A stretch of 49,684 nucleotides of DNA from an uncultured Candidatus Poseidoniales archaeon (GTDB lineage Archaea > Thermoplasmatota > Poseidoniia > Poseidoniales > Thalassarchaeaceae), in the NCBI GenBank assembly GCA_964556195.1, contig CAZKVK010000002.1:5054-54737 (forward strand), written 5' to 3'. Made by a program: the position numbers and the translations under genes. Under the pieces are notes generated by a model that was not told where the DNA came from, ran no database searches, and saw only the letters and a list, made by a program, of their open reading frames with translations. The stretch's first letter is position 1. Every line of letters starts with the position of its first letter. This document shows, piece by piece, positions 1-43,417 of the stretch.

Positions 1-807
1 ACTCTACGAATAACCGGTGGAAAGCCGATTGGTAAGGTTAATTCTGTAATTGGAGCGGTCGATGGGGCCTTTATTCACATTCATCCAATAGCTGAGGAAA
101 TAGAAGGCACCAGCGCAATCGGTTCACCAGTTGAAATTGCTCCAAGAGAGAGGCGAGAGAATCGTGGAAGGGATAGATACTCCAAAGGAGATAATCGACG
201 TGACGATCGACGTGGAAGAAATGATGGCGGAAAAGGAGGAGACTGGACCTGCCCCAAGTGCAATAATTCCAATTTTGCCTTCCGAAAGAAGTGTAACCGC
301 TGTGAAGCCGACCGACCTCGAGATGGGGGAGGGCGATATGAAAGAAAATCTGATGCAAGGGGAAATAATGGGCAAAAGGCAGGAGATTGGACGTGTCCAA
401 AGTGTAAGAATTCTAATTTCGCTTTCCGCAAAAAGTGCAATCGTTGCGAAACTGAGAGGCCGCAAGGAGCGAGACATGGCGGACGACGAAATGAACGTCG
501 ATCGGGAGGAAGAGACGAAAAAGGGCGGAAACCCGGTGATTGGACTTGCCCAAAGTGTAAGAACTCAAATTTCTCCTTCCGTGATAAATGCAACAAATGT
601 AAAGCAGACAAACCTAGTTCTGATTCTAAGTCCGGAAATAGAGGGGGATTTGAGCGTCGAAATTCAAGACCTTCTGTTGGCCGTTCAGAACGCGGAAGAG
701 GGCGATCACCGGGGAGTGCTAGCCGACCACGTAGATCTGGATTCAGAGGCACTGGTAGAGGTGGCCCCAAGGGCAATCGGCCAGGAAGAGGCAGCGGTAG
801 ACGATGA
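1..807 (+). CDS. 5'-truncated RNA-binding protein: putative Gar1/Naf1-like domain + 3 RanBP2-type zinc fingers + RG-rich regions
   Basis: Frame +1 is open from base 1 to TGA at 805-807 (not in the ORF track because it has no start codon in the window). It reads ...GKPIGKVNSVIGAVDGAFIHIHP..., then GDWTCPKCNNSNFAFRKKCNRC, GDWTCPKCKNSNFAFRKKCNRC and GDWTCPKCKNSNFSFRDKCNKC, with R/G-rich linkers and tail. Confidence 0.88.
   Translation, partial: TLRITGGKPIGKVNSVIGAVDGAFIHIHPIAEEIEGTSAIGSPVEIAPRERRENRGRDRYSKGDNRRDDRRGRNDGGKGGDWTCPKCNNSNFAFRKKCNRCEADRPRDGGGRYERKSDARGNNGQKAGDWTCPKCKNSNFAFRKKCNRCETERPQGARHGGRRNERRSGGRDEKGRKPGDWTCPKCKNSNFSFRDKCNKCKADKPSSDSKSGNRGGFERRNSRPSVGRSERGRGRSPGSASRPRRSGFRGTGRGGPKGNRPGRGSGRR
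238..600 (+). repeat. Three copies of a ~66-nt zinc-finger coding unit (238-303, 382-447, 535-600)
   Basis: Near-identical peptide W-T-C-P-K-C-x-N-S-N-F-[AS]-F-R-x-K-C-N-[RK]-C with synonymous DNA divergence between copies. Confidence 0.9.
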
Positions 808-854
808 GTCGCGGCCACCCCAGCATTCTTCTTGTCTAAACCCGAGCAAGCCCC

Positions 855-1889
855 ATGGCGAGTAAGGCGGATATGCTCTGGGAGGATGTTCTTGAGCTTG
901 AAGAGTCTGATGAGAGGGAAGAGGCCCTCAATTTATGCCGCCAAATTACACGAATGGAGCCTGATCACGCCGCCGCTTGGAAAATGACTGCAAGGATGAT
1001 TCTACCAGCCGCGAGGAGGGGCGTGCAAGACATGCCTACTCTACCACAAGCGGCTAGCGCTTATGCTGCATTACAAAACGTCGTGAGGCTAGAACCAGAG
1101 GATTCAGAATCATGGGCACTAGGAGGTATTCTACTCGTTGATCACCTAGGAATGCTAGAAGAGGCCCTCGAGTGGTGGCAGCGAGGAAGACGCGTTAATC
1201 CCAAAGATGTGACACCACTAATCGAACAAATTGCCATTCTTGTACGCCTAGGGATGTATTCTGAAGCTGGCGAGTTGTTGGAAATAATGTTCGATTCGGA
1301 AATGGAACAACCCGACAGGAAGCAACTCGTGAATATGGATCGAGTTAGGCAGATGGTTGACAAGGCGGCCAAAATGGAGAAAGAGGAAATATTCAGACCG
1401 CAAAATCCCAAACATCCTCGATGGGAGATAATCGGACGAATGAAAACTCGTAAACCACTCTCTGATACTTTCTTTCTGTTCACTTTTGTCGCACCAATCG
1501 TGTTCTTGATTGGAACTGTAGCCATGCAATTACTTGGAGGATTGAAGCCCCCTTACGGATTCATATTTGTATTCATAATAATTCTAGGTCTTTTTACGGG
1601 AATAAGTAAAGCCGGTGCTGGATTATTACAAAAACTCAACAGACACGCACTCGACCTAGAAAGGGCCATCGATATTGAGGCGACTTCAGGAAAGGTCTGT
1701 GTGCCATCAGACATACGTGGAAGTAAACTCTACAATCATACGATTGGAAATCGAACTGAAGCTTTCCAAGACCGGCATGGTAGAATAATTGAGTCTGACG
1801 AGATTATTGGACAAAAGTGGAAACCTAACCTACCCGATTTTTCAAACACAGATAGTTGGTGGGGAGAGGACGAAGAATCAGAAAATTAA
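855..1889 (+). CDS. TPR-repeat membrane protein
   Basis: TPR-like helices (EPDHAAAW, EPEDSESWALGG, EEALEWWQRG), two hydrophobic TM segments in the C-terminal half and an acidic tail. Confidence 0.75.
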   Translation: MASKADMLWEDVLELEESDEREEALNLCRQITRMEPDHAAAWKMTARMILPAARRGVQDMPTLPQAASAYAALQNVVRLEPEDSESWALGGILLVDHLGMLEEALEWWQRGRRVNPKDVTPLIEQIAILVRLGMYSEAGELLEIMFDSEMEQPDRKQLVNMDRVRQMVDKAAKMEKEEIFRPQNPKHPRWEIIGRMKTRKPLSDTFFLFTFVAPIVFLIGTVAMQLLGGLKPPYGFIFVFIIILGLFTGISKAGAGLLQKLNRHALDLERAIDIEATSGKVCVPSDIRGSKLYNHTIGNRTEAFQDRHGRIIESDEIIGQKWKPNLPDFSNTDSWWGEDEESEN

Positions 1890-1903: not shown

Positions 1904-3169
1904 TTATGTCCCTACTGAATAATCTTCGAGATAGGCTAGTTGCTCATCTGTCAAGCTATCGATGCTAATTCCTTCTGCCGTCAGTTTCAAGCTTGCCAAT
2001 TCGCTATCTTGTTCGGCACTAATATCGTAGACGATGTTGTCGAACCCCTCACCTTCAGCCGCTAATCGGCAGAGTGCTAGGAATTGATTGGCGAATGACA
2101 TATCCATCACTTCGCTTGGATGGCCCTCTGCTGCAGCTAGATTCACTAGTCTTCCACGGGCAAGTAAATGTATAGTGCGTCCATCTTTGAGTTGGAAGGC
2201 TTCGTTATCATCTCTAATTGTGTAAATCTTGTTGGCCCTCTCCTCTAGATCTGAAATTTTGATTTCACAATCGTAATGTCCAGTATTGCACACGATTGCT
2301 CCTTCTTTCATAGTGTCAAAGTGGCGACCTATGATAACATCCTTCATTCCAGTCGCAGTGCAGAATACGTCACCAATCTTTGCTGCATCATCCATCTTCA
2401 TCACACGGAATCCATCCATAACCGCTTTCAGAGCAGCTATTGGGTCGATTTCTGTGACGATTACATTGGCTCCCATACCACGTGCACGGTTGGCTAATCC
2501 CTTGCCACAATGCCCGTATCCTGCAACCACGAAGGTCTTGCCCGCGAGCAAGACGCTGGTCGCGCGGATGATTCCATCAAGGGTTGATTGACCGGTTCCG
2601 TGCACATTGTCGAAGTCCCACTTGGTGGATGCGTCGTTGACTGCAATGACTGGATAGAGAAGTTCTCCTGCTTGGCCCATCGCTCTGAGTCTGTGAACAC
2701 CGGTAGTGGTTTCTTCGGTTCCTCCGATTACCGCTTCAGCTAGTTCTGGAAATTTACTGTGAACTCGATAAATTAGATCTGCACCATCGTCGAGAGTCAG
2801 TGTTGGATTAATCTGAAGAGTGCGGTCAATAGATTGGTAGAACTCCTCGGTATTTTGACCATACCAAGCATGAACATCATAGCCCTCAGAGGCAAGCCAA
2901 GCCGCTACATCATCCTGTGTAGATAGGGGGTTACAACCGGACCAAGAGACCTTGCCGCCAGCGGCTTCAATCGTCTCAATTAGTACTGCAGTTTCCTTCG
3001 TAACATGCAAGCATCCAGCAATTCTCTGACCTGCTAAGGGTTGGACTTTCTCGGCTTTGGCACGTAACATAGCGAGAGCTGGCATTCTACTTCGAGCCCA
3101 GTCTACCTTCAGGCCACCAGCCTTTGCCAGAGAGAGATCTGCCACAGTGTATGTGTCCCCTTCGTCCAT
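1904..3169 (-). CDS. ahcY: S-adenosylhomocysteine hydrolase
   Basis: GCLHVTKETAVL, CNPLSTQDDVAA, EETTTGVHRL, GRLVNLAAAEGHPSEVMDMSFANQ motifs. Confidence 0.97.
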   Translation of the reverse strand: MDEGDTYTVADLSLAKAGGLKVDWARSRMPALAMLRAKAEKVQPLAGQRIAGCLHVTKETAVLIETIEAAGGKVSWSGCNPLSTQDDVAAWLASEGYDVHAWYGQNTEEFYQSIDRTLQINPTLTLDDGADLIYRVHSKFPELAEAVIGGTEETTTGVHRLRAMGQAGELLYPVIAVNDASTKWDFDNVHGTGQSTLDGIIRATSVLLAGKTFVVAGYGHCGKGLANRARGMGANVIVTEIDPIAALKAVMDGFRVMKMDDAAKIGDVFCTATGMKDVIIGRHFDTMKEGAIVCNTGHYDCEIKISDLEERANKIYTIRDDNEAFQLKDGRTIHLLARGRLVNLAAAEGHPSEVMDMSFANQFLALCRLAAEGEGFDNIVYDISAEQDSELASLKLTAEGISIDSLTDEQLAYLEDYSVGT

Positions 3170-3234: not shown

Positions 3235-6200
3235 TCAATTGGCGCCGCCTTTGCCTTGCTGGGCATAGTATGCTGCGTAATACTGCTCGGCATATTCCCT
3301 CGCAGTAGCCTCGTCATAGCCTTGGCCAACCATCTGTTGGACGTATGCCTCTACTGGGTCCATTTGCTCTACACCACCGAACTGTTGCACTGTATCGTCT
3401 GCCTGGTCTGACTTACCTCTCGATTTAACTACGACTAAGGTAACTCCTACAATTGCTAGAATCAAGATAATTCCAACAGCGGCGAACATGATAATATCAG
3501 TACTTCCACTTTCTGACGCACAACCGTCAGCAGAAGGATTCAGGGTACAAGGATCGCTAGGTCGAGGTAGTAAATCGATTGTGAATTGGTTATCCAATGT
3601 GTATCGACTTCCGTCGCCTTCGACAATTCTCCAGTATACTGTGACTTGAACTCCAGTTGTCTCCGAATATAGATCTGCAATGTTCAGAGTTAGAGTGAAG
3701 GAATCACCATCTCCAAGTACGGCAGGGCCAGTTGAGTTGTACTTTCCGAGTGTCTTTTGAGTAGCCTTAGGCGATGGCGTCAAATCCAAAACGTCGGCTT
3801 CCAAAGCAACCTCAATTTCCACGCCATTTTCAGCACCTGAGTTTACTATTCCATTGATTGTGACCAAATCTTGGCTCTGTGAATCAGTGGAACGCGGCGA
3901 TGTTATCTCCACAACTGGAGGTTCGTCTCCGAAATCTTCACCAACTACGATGAAGTAAATTCGTGCCTTTTCGGATTGCTTTCCTGCTCGATCGTAAACA
4001 ATCAATTCAAGCCTAATCTGATTCTCTAGAGTTCCATCGCTGGTCATGTTTCGGAATACATAATTCCACATGTCTCCACCAGCTGCATTTGGAACTTGAT
4101 AGGTGTGCCCTTCTAGAGTTGGATTGGACGAATCTACTGGATAATCGAAGAATACTCGATACTCGAACATCTCAATTCCTCTCTCTCCCTCGGGCGCGTC
4201 AGCGTCAGAGCTTGCCGAGGAGTCGAAGGACAAACTGATGTCACCACTGTCGGTCAATCGGACGCGATAAATCGGCCACTCTATGCCGCCGACTGTCTTG
4301 CTTCCTTCAAGAACCACGAACTCGTCTGTAACACTGTCCTCAACCAATTGTAGATCTGCGTTCGGTCGGAATTCGTCCGCCAATGTATCATCAGTTACTA
4401 GATTGATGTAGGTGATTCGTGTGTGACCATTCTCATCATGGAGATATAGAGTGAGAAGCCATTCTGCACCTATTCTACATCCCGTTGAAGAACTTGTATC
4501 CCCGACGCAGAAGTTACCAAGAGCAGGGATGCTCGGACTATTCTGACGAATATGGCTAATCTCACCGAAATCGATAATCTCTCCTTCCCATCCTGTTACC
4601 GACTCGTTCATGTCTGTAGATTGTAATGTCCAATCTGCAGTGATACTGTCAGCCAAGGATGAATCAGAAGTCAAGAACGAGAAATCGAGTTCTGAGTTCG
4701 ACTTGATGTACATGGTTGCGTAAGCACCTGTTACTGTGTCAATCGAAGGAGCCTCTCCATTTACAGTCAGGTCAAATCCATCACCTGCAATTCCAAAGTT
4801 GGAAGGATATGGACTGAGATGATATCCTAGCATGTTGGATAGTAGTGGCATCGATGTTCCGCCAAGTGGTTGGGAGAAGCTTGGATTCTCTACATCGAGG
4901 GTGGTGACAATCATTCCTCCGGCACCGCGGTTACATGTCGAAAGTAATGACTGGGAATCAAATGACTCACTGCGCATGAGTGTATGGAATGTTCCGGTTG
5001 GATCACTTATTCGGCCTCCACAAACTTGTGGGATTTGGTCGAATTGCACCTGTGCAGTATCGAGACCAGCAAGTGCGACGTATTCGCCGCCATGTACACC
5101 AGCGAACGCTGCAGTATCGACGTTGGCAAGCAATGGGTGGTATGCATCGACCATTACTAGGTCTTCATTTGTGACAGTGTTATTCCATTGGTTTCGCATT
5201 GCGATATCCATTCCGAAAGGTAGCCTGTTTGGCTGGTAATCGTTACGATACGGGCCTAGGTGAATCTGAACCGTTCCACCATTGACCATGTACGCCTCTA
5301 GGACTTCTGTGACTGAAAGGCCATCAGATTCCCTAGTAGCAGCTAGTGTCTCGTAATATTCACCATACTCGACATTGTAATCGGTCTGCCATGGTAGTAG
5401 GATTTTCTCATAGTGAGACATCCAGTTCTCGGTTGCATATCTATCCCAATCGCTTACCGCCAACTGAGTGTAAGTCTTCCCCATTGCCTCTAGGTCCTGC
5501 TTTACTCTCTGCAAGCGATTCTGGTCAGTAGGATTAGACAGAATCGCGACATCAACAGTGTCAAAGAACTCTATTTCGAAGAAACGATCGTTACCCGAGG
5601 GGTCCCCATCCTCTGTCAATATTGCATAGAAACTGATGTTGTATTGATGTCCATCGTACCAGCCGTTGTAGGGTGCACTCCAGTTAGCGAAATCACGAGC
5701 ATGGGGGTCAAGGTCGAATGGACCATTATCAGCGGCTTGTTCGTAGACAGTCTGACCCGTTGTCATATCTACAATCTTCATGTTCACCTCGTACTCTCCG
5801 GCGATTACACCATTCAGCAGAGGAACGGTGAATGAGTGCTGAGAGACCGAATCATATGTGTACACACACTTGTATGTGATATCGGACACACAATCAAGCA
5901 CATTTGGTTGCATCAAAGTGATGTCCGCGCTTGCGATGCTGAAGATAATCTGGGTGTGATTGTTTGCAGTAGTAATCTCAGATTTATTGTACCAAGATGT
6001 TCCTTCAATTGAACTATTGAATAGTGTGGTAGCATCGATTCGGTAAATTCCAGATTGGAAGTCATGCGTTGCCACCGTCACGTCTTGGCGTTCGGATGCA
6101 TCTAATCCATTGATGTCGTTGATGTAGGTTCCATCATTCTCGAAAGTGAATTCGTCGATGCGAATGTTATCGACTGCAAATCCGGCAAGACCTGCATTTC

Positions 6201-9200
6201 CGTTAACACCATCGTCGTTTGATTGGAATCTCCATGTCAAAGTGACTTCTGCGCCTGAAAGGTCTGTACACTCAGTTCTCCACTGGAAGGTGTCATTCGA
6301 TGTTTGGTTCAGTAGAGTTATGTGGGTCATATCGATTATGACGGACTTAACCAGACTCTCTGAATCAAACCAAACTACAGACTCGTAGCGGTCGGAGTGG
6401 TCTCCCATGTATTCTACCTCATCATATCGGCCATTATTGTCGAAATCCTCACATTCTCCAAGGCCACTACCATCTCGGAAGGGCCTAAGTCCATTTTCGT
6501 TCAAATCGGTCCAACTTCCCCAAACAGTTCCTCGGTAGATTTCCCCTCCCATTGACCATTCAATTTCTAGGCCAGCAGCATCACGTATTGCTAAGATGTT
6601 ACCTTGAGAATCTGAGAGGAAATCTCCCTCCGCGAAGTAGTCGAATGTTAGGTAAGTGAAATCGGTTCCACCGGATGCAACTTGGAAAGGATCCAAGGTT
6701 AGAGTCTCATCCCAATTGTCGCCATAACCTGTGTCTGGATCGCCTAACCAATATGCAAAGGAATTGAACACACCTCTACTCTGTGGGAGCATTGGATGGT
6801 CGCCATTCGTGTCATCTAGGCGGCTACCATTTTCATTTCCGTCGTCTTCCCAAATCGGTTCTAATCCTGAGAAATCCTCGATGGCGATTAGATCAGGTAG
6901 GGCGTTCTTGACCACAGTTTCTAACTGGAAGTCGGTCAAAGTGTTTCCAAAGTTCTGCACTCTAATATCTATGTCTCGGTCACCCGATGCATATCTCAAT
7001 CCATTCTCAAGACTAATCCATGGTTCCTCTGCAACACCAGGGTCGAAGAGGTTCTTGACAGTAATTTGGAATTTTACCTCATCATTAGTAGCATCTGCAT
7101 TGTTGAACCCACTAGGATTGGTTAGTTCGGTCTTGATGTAGTAGGTTCGGTTGTCGATGAAATCAGCAGTTAGGGATACTTCCTCGGTAGCACCAGCTGC
7201 GAAATCAGAGAATGTCAATGTTTGGCTTACCATTTCCTCGGAACCGAAAATAACATCGGTTTTTCGAATCGAAATATTGTCAAAGGCGAATCCATCAAGT
7301 CCAGTTCCCTGAGATGAACCGTCTGGACCAACGCTTCCCATCAGACCGCTGCGGAAGCGGAAGCGGATATCGACGACCTCACCAGCATAGCGAGTAAGAT
7401 CGATGGCATCGTCACCAGAAAGACTAACCCAAGGGTAGATTGTTTCTGTGTTGAAGTTTCCATTGTAAGTGTTGTATTCTGGATCATATCCTAGACCATA
7501 AAGTCGGAATAATCTCTCCGCATCCCAACCGCCTGTGAAGAATACTTGTTCCCATCCATTTCCATCACTCCATACCTCAATACCACAAGAGTCCTCATAC
7601 AACCATCTTTCAACCACAGCGTACTGTTCAGCAAGATACAACTCAAAGAAAGCAGCGCTACAGAATAAATCCAAATCGAGATATGCTGCATCGGAGCCCG
7701 TTAAATCGACATTCTCGATGATGAAGGCCTCGTCCATATTGTTGTAGTAACCGGATTGGTTATCCTCATCTTCATGGTCCATTCCAGCCCACATGTAGGT
7801 AGTTGGATTAGTGTCTGCTTCCCACCAATCATCAGTGGCTGAACCATTAGAATCAGTCGATGCATTCCATTCTTCGTGCCATGAAGATGCACCTTCGTTA
7901 TACTCACCTGTGTAGGACTTTAGGACGATGGCACAAGCAGAGCAATTGGTATTGTCGATGTTGCCCTCAAAGTCGTTGGAATACACTAGGGTGTCGATTC
8001 CATCAAGGACTTCCTTGACTTCCAAGTCGACATCAATTGAACCAGAAATAGGGTTTAGACCAGTGTTTTTCACTGTCAAGTTGACAAATCTGTTACCCTC
8101 GCCAATCATGGCGGCTCCAGTCGCTGGATCATATGCCGCCGGTGCAATGCTAACCTCGGTAATCCCCACATCCTCATTATCTAGACTTAGTACAGATAGG
8201 AAATCGCCTGCTCCGGCCCATCCTTGAGTATCTAGCCACATAGCGCTATTTGCGAATCTGTATGATCTGTCTCGCTGGCCTATGGCAATCTCGAATGCAC
8301 TGTTTTCTCCGCCAGCCAATTGACCTGGGACAGCCATGGTTGGTCGGCGACCTACATCGAAGGAAAGCGATGAAAGATATCCGTTGCCGTTTGGATTACC
8401 AAGAATAATTTCTACTGTATTCACTTCCCTTAGGTTATCCACGAGCAAGTATGTTTGGTTCTGTGCAGTGGAGTCCTGTAAGCGAGTTAGAGTGACTTCG
8501 GTTGGAACGAAGAAATCCATGTGTCCATCTTGATTTACATCAGCAATGGTAATCGAGGCACCTAGATAGTCACCAAGAGTGACGTAATTCTGAGTGTTCC
8601 ATGATGACCCAGATCTAGTAGCATAGGATAGATTGCCTGTAATTCCATCTACGGCAGCGATTAGGTCAATCTCTCCATCATCGTTGGTGTCGGAAATATC
8701 GATTCCATACAAAGGATAGTTGTGTTCTGCATCAAGCTTGAAATTATGGACCCCATTTGCTGTTGCGTCTAATGGATTTGGATAAGTTCCAAGCGTACAG
8801 TCGTATTCAAGGACGGTCATATTGTCATAGTGTCCATTCGAGAATCCAACACCGGTGTTGTACGGAGGCGTGCGGAGCAACCAAATGTCCAGATCCTCAC
8901 AATCACCTAGAGAGCCGCCTATTCCTCCGCCGAGTACATCTTCTCCCCAATGGCCTAGAATTAGATTCGTGTATAGACCATTAGTTAGCGGCACTGGTAT
9001 GGTTTGTTGGGCCGTTAACTGAGTTGGGTCTGGGCCCTTGTATATGTTGAGGTAATTATTTGTGAAAGTAGGGTCAACTACGTTCATCACAATATCTGCG
9101 TTTCCATCTCCGTCGATATCCTTTACATCCATGTCCTGAAGATATGGATTACTAACTGTGATTGCTGGCGATGGATTCCAGTTGTTGATTCTCTCGTTAC

Positions 9201-9660
9201 AATCTCCCCAAAGGACGGTTAGGTTTCCTGGAACCATAGGACCTCCTACGAATCGAATGTTTTGTTGATAATACACAACATCGTTGACACCATCTCCGTC
9301 TATATCTGCAACATAGACTCTAGTTCCGTCAGCTGTATCCCTGAAACCAGCACGGTGTGAGTCATTGTTTGAAATGAAGACGTCCTGCCTATCTCCAAAT
9401 CCGCCCAAACCATCATTGTACAGTGCTGTAATGAAGTGACCCATGGAACTGGCCGACAAAATGTCGTTGTCGTTATCACAGTCGATATCACCAATCGAAA
9501 TGAAAGAGGGGTCTCGCTGGACCGCATATTGAGTAATGTGGGATGCTGAGACAGATGGAACCAAGGATAACATTGGTGAACTTAACATCAGCATAACCAA
9601 GAAAATCGCGATTCGGCCTCCTTTGGATTCGTTTCGGGTGTTCTTAGACAGGGTCATCAT
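3235..9660 (-). CDS. Giant (~2140 aa) acidic cell-surface protein: FG-GAP/VCBS-type repeats, Ig/CARDB-like and jelly-roll modules, C-terminal TM anchor
   Basis: Signal peptide (IAIFLVMLMLSSPMLSLVPSVSA), DIDGDGxxD and DVNQDGHMD Ca-binding repeats, two RFxS...GFAxDNIxI modules, TM helix near the C-terminus. Start moved from TTG 9714 to ATG 9660. Confidence 0.85.
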   Translation of the reverse strand: MMTLSKNTRNESKGGRIAIFLVMLMLSSPMLSLVPSVSASHITQYAVQRDPSFISIGDIDCDNDNDILSASSMGHFITALYNDGLGGFGDRQDVFISNNDSHRAGFRDTADGTRVYVADIDGDGVNDVVYYQQNIRFVGGPMVPGNLTVLWGDCNERINNWNPSPAITVSNPYLQDMDVKDIDGDGNADIVMNVVDPTFTNNYLNIYKGPDPTQLTAQQTIPVPLTNGLYTNLILGHWGEDVLGGGIGGSLGDCEDLDIWLLRTPPYNTGVGFSNGHYDNMTVLEYDCTLGTYPNPLDATANGVHNFKLDAEHNYPLYGIDISDTNDDGEIDLIAAVDGITGNLSYATRSGSSWNTQNYVTLGDYLGASITIADVNQDGHMDFFVPTEVTLTRLQDSTAQNQTYLLVDNLREVNTVEIILGNPNGNGYLSSLSFDVGRRPTMAVPGQLAGGENSAFEIAIGQRDRSYRFANSAMWLDTQGWAGAGDFLSVLSLDNEDVGITEVSIAPAAYDPATGAAMIGEGNRFVNLTVKNTGLNPISGSIDVDLEVKEVLDGIDTLVYSNDFEGNIDNTNCSACAIVLKSYTGEYNEGASSWHEEWNASTDSNGSATDDWWEADTNPTTYMWAGMDHEDEDNQSGYYNNMDEAFIIENVDLTGSDAAYLDLDLFCSAAFFELYLAEQYAVVERWLYEDSCGIEVWSDGNGWEQVFFTGGWDAERLFRLYGLGYDPEYNTYNGNFNTETIYPWVSLSGDDAIDLTRYAGEVVDIRFRFRSGLMGSVGPDGSSQGTGLDGFAFDNISIRKTDVIFGSEEMVSQTLTFSDFAAGATEEVSLTADFIDNRTYYIKTELTNPSGFNNADATNDEVKFQITVKNLFDPGVAEEPWISLENGLRYASGDRDIDIRVQNFGNTLTDFQLETVVKNALPDLIAIEDFSGLEPIWEDDGNENGSRLDDTNGDHPMLPQSRGVFNSFAYWLGDPDTGYGDNWDETLTLDPFQVASGGTDFTYLTFDYFAEGDFLSDSQGNILAIRDAAGLEIEWSMGGEIYRGTVWGSWTDLNENGLRPFRDGSGLGECEDFDNNGRYDEVEYMGDHSDRYESVVWFDSESLVKSVIIDMTHITLLNQTSNDTFQWRTECTDLSGAEVTLTWRFQSNDDGVNGNAGLAGFAVDNIRIDEFTFENDGTYINDINGLDASERQDVTVATHDFQSGIYRIDATTLFNSSIEGTSWYNKSEITTANNHTQIIFSIASADITLMQPNVLDCVSDITYKCVYTYDSVSQHSFTVPLLNGVIAGEYEVNMKIVDMTTGQTVYEQAADNGPFDLDPHARDFANWSAPYNGWYDGHQYNISFYAILTEDGDPSGNDRFFEIEFFDTVDVAILSNPTDQNRLQRVKQDLEAMGKTYTQLAVSDWDRYATENWMSHYEKILLPWQTDYNVEYGEYYETLAATRESDGLSVTEVLEAYMVNGGTVQIHLGPYRNDYQPNRLPFGMDIAMRNQWNNTVTNEDLVMVDAYHPLLANVDTAAFAGVHGGEYVALAGLDTAQVQFDQIPQVCGGRISDPTGTFHTLMRSESFDSQSLLSTCNRGAGGMIVTTLDVENPSFSQPLGGTSMPLLSNMLGYHLSPYPSNFGIAGDGFDLTVNGEAPSIDTVTGAYATMYIKSNSELDFSFLTSDSSLADSITADWTLQSTDMNESVTGWEGEIIDFGEISHIRQNSPSIPALGNFCVGDTSSSTGCRIGAEWLLTLYLHDENGHTRITYINLVTDDTLADEFRPNADLQLVEDSVTDEFVVLEGSKTVGGIEWPIYRVRLTDSGDISLSFDSSASSDADAPEGERGIEMFEYRVFFDYPVDSSNPTLEGHTYQVPNAAGGDMWNYVFRNMTSDGTLENQIRLELIVYDRAGKQSEKARIYFIVVGEDFGDEPPVVEITSPRSTDSQSQDLVTINGIVNSGAENGVEIEVALEADVLDLTPSPKATQKTLGKYNSTGPAVLGDGDSFTLTLNIADLYSETTGVQVTVYWRIVEGDGSRYTLDNQFTIDLLPRPSDPCTLNPSADGCASESGSTDIIMFAAVGIILILAIVGVTLVVVKSRGKSDQADDTVQQFGGVEQMDPVEAYVQQMVGQGYDEATAREYAEQYYAAYYAQQGKGGAN

Positions 9661-9711
9661 GGCTTCGCCGAATTTCATTTCATTATTATGCCTAATGGGA
9701 TGATGTTTTTC

Positions 9712-9728
9712 CAACCCCTTTGGGGTTG
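9712..9728. terminator. CAACCCC-TTT-GGGGTTG perfect hairpin
   Basis: 7-bp stem, 3-nt loop, about 20 nt downstream of the stop at 9748; function inferred. Confidence 0.4.
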
Positions 9729-17371: not shown

Positions 17372-17447
17372 AGTCCCTTAGTGTAGCGGTCCATCATATG
17401 GCACTCTGGATGCCATGACCCTGGTTCAAATCCGGGAGGGACTACCA
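17372..17447 (+). tRNA. tRNA-Gln (anticodon CTG)
   Basis: Acceptor stem AGTCCCT/AGGGACT, anticodon arm TGGCA-CTCTGGA-TGCCA, T arm CCTGG-TTCAAAT-CCGGG, encoded CCA, no intron; AATATA box upstream. Confidence 0.96.
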
Positions 17448-43339: not shown

Positions 43340-43417
43340 TGGTAGCGAGTGGTGGATTTGAACCACCGGTCTCCGGGTTATGAGCCCGACGAGATAACCT
43401 GGCTACTCCAACTCGCT
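43340..43417 (-). tRNA. Initiator tRNA-Met (CAT)
   Basis: AGCGAGT/ACTCGCT acceptor stem with A1-U72, three consecutive G-C pairs (GGG/CCC) around CT-CAT-AA, TTCAAAT T-loop, encoded CCA. Confidence 0.96.

What the first reader, a model, noticed from the sequence alone, without database searches (positions are those of the whole stretch)
1..807. Unannotated archaeal FUS/TAF15-like RNA-binding protein: Gar1-like domain + three RanBP2 zinc fingers + RG-rich tracts
Seen: frame +1, absent from the ORF track, has three GDW-x-C-x2-C-x3-N-F-[AS]-F-R-x2-C-N-x-C fingers separated by R/G/D-rich linkers, with an RG-rich tail. Known: the GDW...NFxxR..CN pattern is the ssRNA-binding subclass of RanBP2 fingers (ZRANB2, FUS, EWS, TAF15), which is mainly eukaryotic. 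Archaeal Gar1 is normally a bare small barrel without the GAR tracts of eukaryotic Gar1. Inference: the upstream IGKVNSVIGAVDGAFIHI resembles the Gar1/Naf1 core (IGKVxDVxGPVxxPY). This may be an H/ACA pseudouridylation subunit with added sequence-specific RNA readers and a condensate-prone region.
Basis: partly seen in the sequence, partly recalled or inferred. Interest (0 to 1): 0.85.

Follow-up and report, generated by a model that had tools for sequence, protein, structure and literature searches.

The report
Archaeal Gar1 with RanBP2 zinc fingers
Abundant marine archaea (Marine Group II) have extended a small subunit of their RNA-modifying machine, Gar1, with eukaryote-style RNA-reading zinc fingers and arginine/glycine-rich tracts that textbooks treat as eukaryote-specific for this protein.

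Summary
Window 1-807 is the 3' 90% of a 297-aa gene whose ATG lies 87 nt upstream of the window (contig C2:4967). It was missing from the ORF track only because it runs off the window edge.

The N-terminal 78 aa are a divergent Gar1 barrel. They fall below Pfam's cut-off (15.5 vs 29.3 bits), but other evidence supports Gar1:
- The confident model (pLDDT 90) matches P. furiosus Gar1 best (TM 0.78/0.83).
- The family profile reaches stand-alone proteins that pass Pfam's Gar1 cut-off.
- It is the only Gar1 candidate in a genome that encodes Cbf5, Nop10 and L7Ae.
- A complex model with the genome's own Cbf5 scores 0.82, against 0.00 for the best control.

Three Pfam-significant RanBP2 fingers follow. 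They carry the FUS/EWS-type GGU-contact residues (D4, N14, F17, F19, R20, N24). They sit in R/G-rich linkers predicted to be disordered, and the protein ends in a conserved RG tail.

The architecture is order-wide in Poseidoniales, with 0-4 fingers in species genomes. It was almost absent from the rest of the phylum sample (1 of 237 genomes, an unrelated ribbon).

RNA binding, the role in the H/ACA particle and condensation are inferred, not shown. No paper describing it was found. I rate it a new variant of a known kind.

The parts
1..147 (+). C-terminal two thirds (residues 30-78) of the Gar1-like six-strand barrel. Residues 1-29 and the ATG lie upstream of the window, at contig C2:4967-5053 (L002:4967-5053).
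   Evidence: AF2 model of residues 1-80 has pLDDT 90. Foldseek's best hits are P. furiosus Gar1 chains, TMq 0.78 and TMt 0.83. hhalign against stand-alone Gar1 proteins gives 98.8%. The predicted Cbf5 interface lies on residues 9, 11-13, 17, 24-27, 44-53 and 55.
148..237 (+). Linker 1, R/D/G/N-rich, predicted disordered
   Evidence: pLDDT is below 50 for residues 80-108. Composition. Identity among close orthologues is 57-80%.
238..318 (+). RanBP2-type zinc finger 1 (C4), FUS/EWS-like contact set
   Evidence: PF00641 scores 42.2 bits at C2:5291-5371. The finger reads D4 N14 F17 F19 R20 N24.
319..375 (+). Linker 2, R/G-rich, predicted disordered
   Evidence: pLDDT is below 50 for residues 138-155. 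Orthologue identity is 52-71%.
376..465 (+). RanBP2-type zinc finger 2
   Evidence: PF00641 scores 43.6 bits at C2:5429-5518. It aligns to the FUS finger 6g99_B at E 4e-7. It has the same contact set.
466..528 (+). Linker 3, R/G-rich, predicted disordered; the fastest-evolving part
   Evidence: pLDDT is below 50 for residues 185-207. Orthologue identity is 21-75%.
529..618 (+). RanBP2-type zinc finger 3
   Evidence: PF00641 scores 34.9 bits at C2:5582-5671. It has the same contact set.
619..804 (+). RG-rich C-terminal tail, ending in a conserved GRGR..SGFRG..GRGSGRR motif
   Evidence: There are 12 RG/GR dipeptides and 2 RGG in 68 aa. pLDDT is below 50 for residues 237-297. Orthologue identity is 68-79%, and R262 through G283 include many invariant columns in A2.
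805..807 (+). Stop codon TGA

Best explanation
The gene encodes the Gar1 subunit of the H/ACA pseudouridylation particle of a Marine Group II archaeon (Poseidoniales, Thalassarchaeaceae/MGIIb). It carries a lineage-specific C-terminal RNA-binding extension.

Proposed working, with each step marked:
(1) The 78-aa barrel docks on the catalytic domain of Cbf5, as in solved Cbf5-Nop10-Gar1 complexes. There it governs the thumb loop and so substrate loading and product release. This is inferred from fold, conservation and a complex model; the Gar1 role itself is taken from PMC8096250.
(2) Three zinc-bound RanBP2 fingers are spaced by flexible, strongly basic R/G-rich linkers of about 21-30 aa and followed by an RG tail. 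Each finger is predicted to grip a short single-stranded G-G-U/N element. The predicted mode is an aromatic at position 17 stacked between guanines, with D4, R20, N14 and N24 hydrogen-bonding. This is inferred from residue identity with ZRANB2, FUS and EWS fingers.
(3) Together they would give the particle multivalent, low-specificity affinity for single-stranded RNA. This would most plausibly hold it on nascent or unfolded rRNA and tune substrate capture and release. That is the job proposed for the RGG domains of eukaryotic Gar1, and it is inference.

Finger number changes between lineages (0 to 4 in species genomes, 5 in one metagenome protein). So the module is accessory and tunable, not essential to Gar1's core role.
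For: Gene and start:
- Searches give the gene and its start. MSFSG is invariant in 12 of 12 orthologues.

Gar1 identity:
- The AF2 model has pLDDT 90.0 and pTM 0.79.
- The 12 rows Foldseek lists at ranks 1-13 are all chains of Gar1 size from H/ACA RNP or telomerase H/ACA-lobe entries. The best is 2ey4_D (E 4.9e-4, TMq 0.78, TMt 0.83, rmsd 2.4 A). Naf1's Gar1 domain comes at rank 25. One search names 2hvy_B, 3u28_C and 9g25_C as Gar1.
- A1 profile against 1.84 billion proteins gave 130 hits at E<=1e-3. They include stand-alone P0238 (E 3.8e-5) and P0242 (6.4e-4). These pass Pfam's Gar1 cut-off at 33.5 and 29.9 bits against 29.3.
- hhalign of A1 against five such proteins gives 98.8%, E 1.3e-16, over 76 columns.
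- Gar1 is the top Pfam and NCBIfam match for the N-terminus.

Genomic logic:
- There is no other PF04410 match in the genome.
- Nop10 scores 50.3 bits.
- Cbf5 has DKCLD+TruB_N+TruB_C_2+PUA domains.
- Two L7Ae-family genes are present.
- The domain has exactly one match in each of 41 of 41 genomes of the order.

Cbf5 docking:
- The complex score is 0.82 in all 3 runs, with 0.00 for the best of 3 controls. That mark was reached by 58 of 80 solved complexes and 2 of 110 mismatched pairs. Contact agreement is 100% and partner pLDDT is 88.
- The interface residues include the family's invariant S11, E13, P25, L27, V45, G47 and H55.

Fingers:
- PF00641 scores 94.3 bits.
- The contact positions are taken from PMC6384913 (passages). 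The numbering was checked against the FUS alignment.
- In 117 fingers from 83 loci, D4, W5, N14, N16 and an aromatic at 17 are present in 117 of 117, and N24 in 116 of 117. Position 20 is R in 72 and K in 45.

Selection:
- The three finger units are 72-74% identical in DNA but only 30-44% identical at third codon positions.
- No tandem DNA repeat was found.
- Among close orthologues the core is 85-90% identical, the fingers 74-96% and the linkers 21-80%.

Disorder:
- The full-length model has folded beads (pLDDT 74-80) and linkers and tail below 50.

Not an assembly artefact:
- The same upstream gene is present in 77 of 80 named loci, and the same downstream gene in 61 of 80.
Against: - The single sequence fails the curated Gar1 thresholds: Pfam 15.5 vs 29.3 bits, NCBIfam 19.4 vs 107.
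- The A1 profile against PDB sequences is not significant. The Gar1 hits have E 0.15-1.4, and an archaemetzincin has E 0.1.
- Only 3 Foldseek matches have E<=0.001, and small beta-barrels resemble each other.
- The A3 proteins used in hhalign were picked from A1's own hit list, which favours a match.
- Cbf5-Gar1 complexes are solved, so the complex score may be memory of those structures and does not show that this copy binds.
- The genome is 87.6% complete, so a second Gar1 could be unassembled.
- 16 of 64 complete named loci have no finger at all. The fingers are therefore dispensable in some lineages.
- 45 of 117 fingers have K20 and a C-x4-C ending, a variant whose RNA binding has no tested precedent that I saw.
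- Nothing here measures zinc, RNA binding or pseudouridylation.
- No H/ACA guide RNA was sought in the genome.
Confidence: 0.72

Rival explanations
1. The fingers bind something other than RNA: a protein partner, as Nup153/RanBP2 fingers bind Ran or NZF/TRABID fingers bind ubiquitin, or DNA. The extension would then recruit or regulate the particle through that partner.
For: RanBP2-type fingers as a class bind proteins as well as RNA (PMC6384913 and PMC6509490 passages). Nup153, Nup358 and TRABID fingers are among the PDB sequence hits, though weaker (E 4.7e-5 to 0.14). 45 of 117 fingers have K instead of R at position 20.
Against: D4, N14, the aromatic at 17 and N24 are invariant or nearly so in 117 fingers. 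These are the RNA-contact residues. According to the paper, the non-binder ZRANB1-B has K19/S20, and the ubiquitin-binding class lacks this set. The best solved relative is the RNA-bound FUS finger. The surrounding R/G-rich, +41 context suits nucleic acid.
Confidence: 0.12
2. The protein no longer works in the H/ACA particle. The barrel is only a scaffold, and the protein is a free-standing FUS-like RNA chaperone or RNA-binding protein.
For: The core is divergent enough to miss the curated Gar1 thresholds. The extension makes up 219 of 297 residues.
Against: It is the only Gar1 candidate in a genome that keeps Cbf5 (with PUA), Nop10 and L7Ae. It is single-copy in 41 of 41 relatives. The family-invariant residues coincide with the predicted Cbf5 interface. 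Fingerless orthologues look like ordinary Gar1 with a basic tail.
Confidence: 0.08
3. The extension is a largely neutral, expansion-prone low-complexity repeat with no specific role.
For: Finger number varies from 0 to 4 between species genomes, and up to 5 in a metagenome protein. The linkers evolve fast, with 21-80% identity. Whole lineages lack fingers.
Against: The finger copies are old: 30-44% identity at third codon positions, against 72-74% overall. No DNA tandem repeat is found. The contact residues are invariant across both families of the order. The C-terminal RG motif is conserved.
Confidence: 0.05
4. It is a chimeric assembly or eukaryotic contamination joined to an archaeal gene.
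For: The finger class is mainly eukaryotic. A likely non-archaeal multi-finger protein (P0089) appears in the hit list.
Against: The same gene sits between the same neighbours in 77 of 80 (upstream) and 61 of 80 (downstream) independently assembled named records. Judging by their record titles, these include single-cell isolates. It is also present in genomes assembled into 1 contig (G023, G026).
Confidence: 0.01

Closest known systems
Archaeal Gar1 (H/ACA RNP subunit; e.g. Pyrococcus furiosus Gar1 in 2ey4 and 2hvy)
   Same: The six-strand barrel is the same and covers the whole chain (TMt 0.83, rmsd 2.4 A). The G-x-V-x-x-V-x-G core motif is shared. The set of partner genes is the same. It is predicted to dock on the Cbf5 catalytic domain.
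   Different: Sequence identity is about 22% and falls below the curated family cut-offs. It carries a 219-aa extension with three zinc fingers and R/G-rich tracts. PMC8096250 (passages) describes the archaeal protein as lacking RGG domains.
Eukaryotic Gar1 (yeast Gar1p, human GAR1) with flanking GAR/RGG domains
   Same: It has a Gar1 core plus arginine/glycine-rich disordered regions. Some Poseidoniales members (L085, L089) have long (RGGN/RGGD)n tracts. The supposed accessory RNA-contact role is the same.
   Different: The eukaryotic RGG tracts flank the core on both sides and contain no zinc fingers. Here the extension is C-terminal only, is interrupted by fingers, and in the window protein has few strict RGG triplets (2). 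The extension was found only inside one archaeal order, so it most likely arose independently.
ssRNA-binding RanBP2 fingers of ZRANB2 and the FET proteins FUS/EWS/TAF15
   Same: It belongs to the same Pfam family with high scores. The FUS finger is the best PDB match (E 4e-7). The pattern D4, N14, aromatic 17, aromatic 19, R20, N24 matches that described for FUS/EWS, which bind GGU. As in FET proteins, the fingers are embedded in R/G-rich disorder.
   Different: The first knuckle is C-x2-C, not FUS's C-x4-C. There are three tandem fingers instead of one. There is no RRM, no prion-like domain and no nuclear context. RNA binding has not been measured. A second subtype in the family (C-x4-C ending, K20; 45 of 117 fingers) has no characterised counterpart that I saw.
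Naf1 (Gar1-domain assembly factor of eukaryotic H/ACA RNPs)
   Same: It has the same barrel fold (2v3m_A, rank 25, TMq 0.67).
   Different: It is a clearly poorer match than Gar1 proper. No archaeal Naf1 is known to me (recalled). Here the protein is the genome's only barrel of this kind.

Membership tests
Gar1 (Pfam PF04410 / NCBIfam PRK13149 models) | Score at or above the curated profile cut-off | tested here: not met
   PF04410 scores 15.5 bits (N-terminal 78 aa) and 12.1 bits (whole protein) against a cut-off of 29.3. NF009632 scores 19.4 against 107. Gar1 is nevertheless the top hit in both libraries. In the tool's own control, the Pfam model passed its cut-off in only 2 of 14 genomes, although 4 of the 14 are archaea.
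Gar1 | Homology to bona fide Gar1 demonstrable by profile methods | tested here: met
   The A1 profile reaches P0238 (E 3.8e-5) and P0242 (6.4e-4) in a 1.84-billion-protein library. Both pass the PF04410 cut-off. hhalign gives 98.8%, E 1.3e-16. Caveat: the comparison set was drawn from A1's own hits.
Gar1 | Six-strand Gar1 barrel fold | tested here: met
   The model has pLDDT 90. The best structural matches are Gar1 chains: TMq 0.71-0.78 for the rows at ranks 1-13, with non-H/ACA barrels at TMq <=0.60.
Gar1 | Binds the catalytic domain of Cbf5 | tested here: inconclusive
   The complex model scores 0.82, against 0.00 for the best of 3 controls. This supports binding but does not show it, and the pass may come from memory of solved complexes. 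No binding experiment was done.
Gar1 | Partner genes (Cbf5 with PUA, Nop10, L7Ae) in the same genome, and no other Gar1 | tested here: met
   The genome is 87.6% complete.
Gar1 | Stimulates H/ACA-guided pseudouridylation and product release | not testable with these tools
   This needs reconstitution.
RanBP2-type zinc finger (Pfam PF00641) | Profile score above the cut-off, and W-x-C-x2-4-C-x3-N-x6-C-x2-C spacing | tested here: met
   The protein scores 94.3 bits against 27. The three fingers score 34.9-43.6 bits. The spacing was read directly from the sequence.
ssRNA-binding (GGU) subclass of RanBP2 fingers (ZRANB2/FUS/EWS type) | Contact residues D4, N14, aromatic 17, R or aromatic 19, R20, N24 | tested here: met
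   All three window fingers read D4 N14 F17 F19 R20 N24. The positions come from PMC6384913 passages and were checked on the FUS alignment.
ssRNA-binding (GGU) subclass of RanBP2 fingers | Measured zinc-dependent binding to GGU-containing single-stranded RNA | not testable with these tools
   No experiment was done. According to the paper, T0B2.5 failed to bind RNA for no identifiable reason. Residues alone are therefore not proof.
GAR/RGG domain (as in eukaryotic Gar1, fibrillarin, nucleolin) | Clustered RGG/RG repeats in a disordered region | tested here: inconclusive
   The window protein has 21 RG/GR dipeptides but only 2 RGG triplets in 156 linker and tail residues. Disorder is predicted. 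Relatives L085 and L089 have clear (RGGN/RGGD)n arrays. The protein is R/G-rich, but in this copy it is not a classical RGG box.

The most novel reading that the evidence does not exclude
Poseidoniales have independently built, on their Gar1, the same two devices that eukaryotes use to organise nucleolar and FET-protein RNA granules: GGU-reading RanBP2 fingers and multivalent R/G-rich disorder. The extension would then drive RNA-dependent condensation of the pseudouridylation and rRNA-maturation machinery into a nucleolus-like body in an archaeal cell. Finger number would tune that behaviour between lineages. A variant of this reading is that the fingers were captured from a planktonic eukaryote by gene transfer at the base of the order.
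Probability: 0.12. Interest if true: 0.85.

Novelty: new variant of a known kind. Interest (0 to 1): 0.6.

Why it matters
RGG domains on Gar1 are described as eukaryote-specific, and their role there is called elusive (PMC8096250, passages read). Here a whole order of very abundant ocean archaea has a Gar1 with an R/G-rich extension. Most of its members add 1-4 fingers of the class that reads GGU in FUS, EWS and ZRANB2.

This offers three things:
- It is a natural series (0, 1, 2, 3 and 4 fingers, with or without long RGG-like arrays) for asking what such extensions do for an H/ACA particle.
- It is a simple, intron-free and nucleus-free setting in which to test finger-plus-RGG RNA recognition and condensation.
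- It is a case study of how 'eukaryotic' RNP features can arise outside eukaryotes.

It also corrects annotation: public copies are mostly labelled 'hypothetical' or 'zinc finger protein'. Marker or Pfam-based surveys would score these genomes as lacking Gar1.

Tried and rejected
1. Single-sequence family scans for Gar1 and the A1 profile against PDB sequences gave only sub-threshold or non-significant Gar1 hits. One unrelated archaemetzincin hit at E 0.1 matched a His-tag/linker-like stretch, and I disregarded it.
2. Tandem Repeats Finder found no DNA repeat over the gene, so a recent repeat expansion in this copy is rejected.
3. My first finger-counting pattern was wrong (all zeros for the window's own gene). 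It was replaced. Seven loci dropped out of that count because of strand or an S-Y-E-G-G variant. They were recovered with 1, 2, 2, 3, 2 and 3 fingers, plus one truncated.
4. Expression: only short Logan contigs from metatranscriptome libraries cover parts of the gene. X2 gave 166 nt with 0 differences, X3 gave 154 nt with 0, and X1 gave 269 nt with 3; X2 and X3 belong to one study and X1 to another. The tool warns that DNA can be present in such libraries. I do not count this as evidence of transcription. Parts without cover mean nothing.
5. Rfam at gathering thresholds found only two tRNAs in the window. The rest of the genome was not scanned for H/ACA guide RNAs.
6. The one RanBP2 hit outside Poseidoniales (G065) is a single C-terminal ribbon on a Pro-rich membrane protein without D4. 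It is unrelated.
7. P0089, a high-scoring hit without a Gar1 core, is an array of eight fingers of a different subtype (G-D-L-Q-F) with G/Q/P-rich linkers. Its origin is unknown, and it was not used.
8. I checked whether R/G-rich tails are a genome-wide habit. They are not: fibrillarin has none, and only one other frame, a membrane-protein tail on C38, qualifies.
9. A finger phylogeny against eukaryotic fingers was not attempted. About 27 alignable residues, most of them invariant, cannot resolve it.
11. Literature searches covered RanBP2+zinc finger+archaea+Gar1 (1 irrelevant paper) and 'Marine Group II'+Gar1 (0 papers). zf-RanBP+archaea gave 13 papers, none on this by title or abstract. Poseidoniales+'zinc finger' gave 5 papers with 4 listed, of which I opened one. 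'Archaeal Gar1'+zinc gave 2. The Gar1/RGG/Asgard terms gave 2. RanBP2-type+archaeal gave 10 listed. For Gar1 with the MGII terms, none of the 10 listed papers contains 'Gar1'.
Full report
WHAT IS THERE. Frame +1 of window 1-807 is open from the first base to a TGA at 805-807. The window is G000:C2:5054-54737, so the contig continues upstream. In the fetched stretch (L002) the frame reaches back to an ATG at C2:4967. That ATG lies 5 nt after the TGA of the preceding 665-aa gene. It gives a 297-aa protein, P0001. The first five residues, MSFSG, are invariant in 12 of 12 aligned orthologues, which supports this start. The gene was 'absent from the ORF track' only because ORFs that run off the source are not listed by default. 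The other long frames over the same DNA (for example 81-818 on the minus strand and 131-865 on the plus strand) are best read as by-products of the purine-rich, stop-poor composition. I found nothing that supports them as genes.

THE FINGERS. Pfam PF00641 (Zn_ribbon_RanBP) scores 94.3 bits for the protein, against a cut-off of 27. The three fingers score 42.2, 43.6 and 34.9 bits. These are the only matches over the cut-off in the genome. The model passed its cut-off in 0 of 14 control genomes. The best solved relative by sequence is the FUS finger (6g99_B, E 4e-7). Nup153, ZNF265/ZRANB2, RBM10 and RBM5 fingers follow.

PMC6384913 (passages read) gives the RNA contacts of ZRANB2 finger 2 as D4, N14, W17 (stacking), R19, R20 and N24. 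It says that FUS and EWS keep R20, N14 and N24, have W at position 19, and bind GGU. I fixed the numbering on the FUS alignment printed. On that numbering all three window fingers read D4, N14, F17, F19, R20, N24.

I then collected 117 fingers from 83 loci. These include the window's own gene and two same-genus loci that may duplicate named records. D4, W5, N14, N16 and an aromatic at 17 are present in 117 of 117, and N24 in 116 of 117. Position 20 is R in 72 and K in 45. The K20 fingers form a second subtype that ends in C-x4-C.

THE N-TERMINAL DOMAIN. On its own the sequence fails the curated Gar1 thresholds, although Gar1 is the top match in both libraries. Pfam gives 15.5 bits against 29.3. 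NCBIfam gives 19.4 against 107. Four further tests were made.
- (a) A profile of the first ~80 residues of 17 family members (A1) against PDB sequences gave four hits at E<=10. Three are Gar1 chains aligned in register (3u28_C 0.15, 9g25_C 0.53, 2hvy_B 1.4). The fourth is an archaemetzincin (0.1). None is significant.
- (b) AlphaFold2 on A1 gave a six-strand barrel with pLDDT 90.0 and pTM 0.79. Foldseek against the PDB put chains of H/ACA particles in all 12 rows listed at ranks 1-13. P. furiosus Gar1 came first (2ey4_D: E 4.9e-4, TMq 0.78, TMt 0.83, rmsd 2.4 A). Unrelated barrels (aIF5B domain, ribosomal proteins, ATPase N-domains) follow at TMq of 0.60 or less. Naf1 is at rank 25.
- (c) A1 against 1.84 billion representative proteins gave 130 hits at E<=1e-3. 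The weak tail contains stand-alone proteins of 75-95 aa. I scanned ten of these distant hits. P0238 and P0242 pass Pfam's Gar1 cut-off (33.5 and 29.9 bits). Five more have Gar1 as top sub-threshold hit, and three have no Gar1 hit.
- (d) hhalign of A1 against five of those stand-alone proteins gives 98.8% probability and E 1.3e-16 over 76 columns. The caveat is that the set was drawn from A1's own hits.

I conclude that the domain is a divergent but genuine Gar1 barrel.

GENOMIC LOGIC. No other PF04410 match exists in the genome, which is 87.6% complete. The genome does encode Nop10 (50.3 bits). It also encodes a Cbf5 with DKCLD, TruB_N, TruB_C_2 and PUA domains and two L7Ae-family proteins. 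The A1 domain has exactly one match in each of 41 of 41 genomes of the order that were searched.

A complex model of the genome's own Cbf5 with the barrel scored 0.82 in all three runs. The best of three controls scored 0.00. That mark was reached by 58 of 80 solved complexes and 2 of 110 mismatched pairs. Contact agreement was 100% and partner pLDDT was 88. Because Cbf5-Gar1 complexes are solved, this shows likeness to them and does not prove that this copy binds. The predicted interface (residues 9, 11-13, 17, 24-27, 44-53, 55) includes the family's invariant S11, E13, P25, L27, V45, G47 and H55.

THE EXTENSION. Residues 79-297 are 20.5% R and 16.4% G, with a net charge of +41. Without the fingers, the 156 linker and tail residues are 25.6% R, 23.1% G and 3.2% hydrophobic. 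They contain 21 RG/GR dipeptides but only 2 RGG triplets. The full-length model shows folded beads (barrel and fingers, pLDDT about 67-80) joined by segments below 50 (residues 80-108, 138-155, 185-207, 237-297).

The three finger units are 72-74% identical in DNA but only 30-44% identical at third codon positions. No tandem DNA repeat is detected. They are therefore old copies kept alike by selection on the protein. Among four close three-finger orthologues the core is 85-90% identical, the fingers 74-96%, the linkers 21-80% and the tail 68-79%. The C-terminal RG motif is strongly conserved.

R/G-rich tails are not a habit of this genome. Fibrillarin has none, and only one other open frame, a membrane-protein tail on C38, has a comparable window.

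DISTRIBUTION. A word-index search found 548 related proteins. Several are labelled by JGI 'predicted nucleic-acid-binding Zn-ribbon protein/rRNA processing protein Gar1', and by NCBI 'zinc finger protein' or 'hypothetical protein' of Euryarchaeota or Poseidoniaceae archaea. In species-representative genomes, 194 stretches encode a relative. The 80 kept are titled Ca. Thalassarchaeum/Thalassarchaeaceae (closest, 90% identity), Poseidoniales, Poseidonia or Marine Group II. Two sit in bins labelled as bacteria and are probably mis-binned.

Of these 80 loci, 16 are cut by a locus end. The 64 complete genes have 0 fingers (16), 1 (11, two of them with runs of N inside the gene), 2 (25), 3 (11) or 4 (1). 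Six further same-genus loci have 1-3 fingers. One metagenome protein has 5 (P0062). The fingerless forms keep an R/G/K-rich tail. L085 and L089 have one finger plus roughly 150 residues of (RGGN/RGGD)n.

In an even sample of 301 genomes of the phylum, PF00641 passes its cut-off in 54. These are G000, 12 of 21 others of its family (f1) and 40 of 42 of the second family (f3). Elsewhere it passes in 1 of 237 genomes, and in 0 of 8 of the sister family in the same class. The one outside hit is an unrelated ribbon on a membrane protein.

Four genomes showed fingers at two loci. There the second locus has its own Gar1 core (G310) or is a contig-end fragment.

I built a tree of the core from 65 rows. 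16 truncated rows and 2 N-containing rows were left out. It has 80 columns and a midpoint root, and many forks are unresolved. It needs 2 changes for the fingerless state. It places the 13-row fingerless clade inside a 53-row clade supported at 100/99 whose other 40 rows all carry fingers. This suggests secondary loss, but I hold that loosely.

Gene order is stable. The upstream 665-aa gene (no Pfam match) is found in 77 of 80 loci. The downstream TPR/membrane gene is found in 61 of 80, and the convergent S-adenosylhomocysteine hydrolase in 44 of 80. The last two counts are limited by 3-kb flanks. The neighbours give no functional hint.

HOW IT MOST LIKELY WORKS.
- Shown: the architecture, the fold class, the residue conservation and the distribution.
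- Inferred from established knowledge (PMC8096250 passages): Gar1 does not touch the guide RNA. It sits on Cbf5 and controls the thumb loop and product release.
- My inference: the fingers each bind a short G-G-U/N element of single-stranded RNA. The basic R/G linkers add non-specific affinity. Together they give the particle multivalent grip on unfolded substrate RNA, most plausibly rRNA precursors, so that capture and release are tuned.

For eukaryotic Gar1, the same paper reports that removing the RGG domains changes turnover in hairpin-specific ways. It suggests contact with substrate RNA. That makes the analogy concrete, though unproven here.

My estimates are about 0.9 that this is the lineage's Gar1, about 0.65 that the fingers bind ssRNA, and about 0.4 for the specific substrate-tethering role.

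NOVELTY. The parts are known and the combination is new. PMC8096250 treats RGG domains on Gar1 as eukaryote-specific. A RanBP2-type motif has been noted in one archaeal protein, ArnA of Sulfolobus (PMC6509490 passage). So the fold is not unheard of in archaea, although the Pfam model did not pass its cut-off in the Sulfolobus control genome. None of my nine answered literature searches turned up a description of a Gar1-finger fusion or of Gar1 in Marine Group II. Automated JGI labels already pair 'Zn-ribbon' with 'Gar1', so the architecture is visible in databases but, as far as I could see, undiscussed. I rate it a new variant of a known kind, with an interest of 0.6.

Noticed in passing
window 81-818 (-), 131-865 (+), 124-477 (-): Several long alternative-frame ORFs (245, 244 and 117 aa) overlap the gene on both strands. 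They look like by-products of the purine-rich, stop-poor R/G/K/D codon composition and not like genes.
   Followed up: no
window 855-1889 (+): The downstream gene encodes a 344-aa protein with N-terminal TPR repeats (TPR_14, 29.4 bits) and a hydrophobic C-terminal half. It is conserved next to gar1 in 61 of 80 related loci.
   Followed up: partly
L002:2965-4962 (contig C2, upstream of the window): The upstream gene encodes a 665-aa protein with no Pfam match and a hydrophobic C-terminal segment. It is conserved upstream of gar1 in 77 of 80 loci. Its stop is 5 nt before the gar1 ATG.
   Followed up: partly
window 1904-3169 (-): S-adenosyl-L-homocysteine hydrolase (AdoHcyase 225 bits, NAD domain 195 bits), convergent with the TPR gene.
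   Followed up: no
window 3235-9714 (-): A very large ORF (2159 aa) with an N-terminal and a C-terminal hydrophobic segment, presumably a giant surface protein. It was not analysed.
   Followed up: no
window 17372-17444 (+) and 43343-43417 (-): Two tRNA genes, the only Rfam matches at gathering thresholds in the window.
   Followed up: no
L069 and L071 (named records): Contigs carrying this archaeal gene and its archaeal neighbours sit in bins titled Rhodobacteraceae bacterium and Gammaproteobacteria bacterium. They are probably mis-binned contigs.
   Followed up: no
L085, L089 (also L086, L090, L092, L093): This sub-lineage has a single finger of the W19 type. In L085 and L089 the finger is followed by about 150 residues of near-perfect (RGGN/RGGD/RGGY) repeats. 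This is the closest thing in the family to a classical eukaryotic GAR domain.
   Followed up: partly
L094, L097, L098, L103, P0113, P0117: Many Poseidoniaceae-like members end in a conserved short motif, G-H-A-H followed by a basic N-P-F/P-R-x-F stretch. It is distinct from the GRGSGRR ending of the window's clade and may be a short linear motif.
   Followed up: no
G310:C37:5954-6616 and G310:C38:28086-28922: One Poseidoniaceae genome holds two complete Gar1-finger genes (284- and 461-aa frames). This is either a true duplication or two strains in one bin.
   Followed up: partly
P0089 (439 aa): A protein with eight RanBP2 fingers of a different subtype (G-D-L-Q-F) in G/Q/P-rich linkers and no Gar1 core. 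It came from a 1.4-kb contig of unknown origin and shows that finger arrays in low-complexity linkers exist elsewhere in the same data.
   Followed up: no
G000:C38:7983-8861 (+): This is the only other frame in the genome with an R/G-rich window. It is a membrane protein whose C-terminal tail is RGR/RSR/GGR-rich.
   Followed up: no
P0226, P0213, P0229: Fingerless proteins of 154-191 aa with the family's S-H-E-G-G-L-L core and long basic tails, of unknown lineage. Together with the short basic tails on the stand-alone Gar1 proteins P0235, P0236 and P0238, they suggest that basic C-terminal tails on archaeal Gar1 are wider than this order.
   Followed up: no
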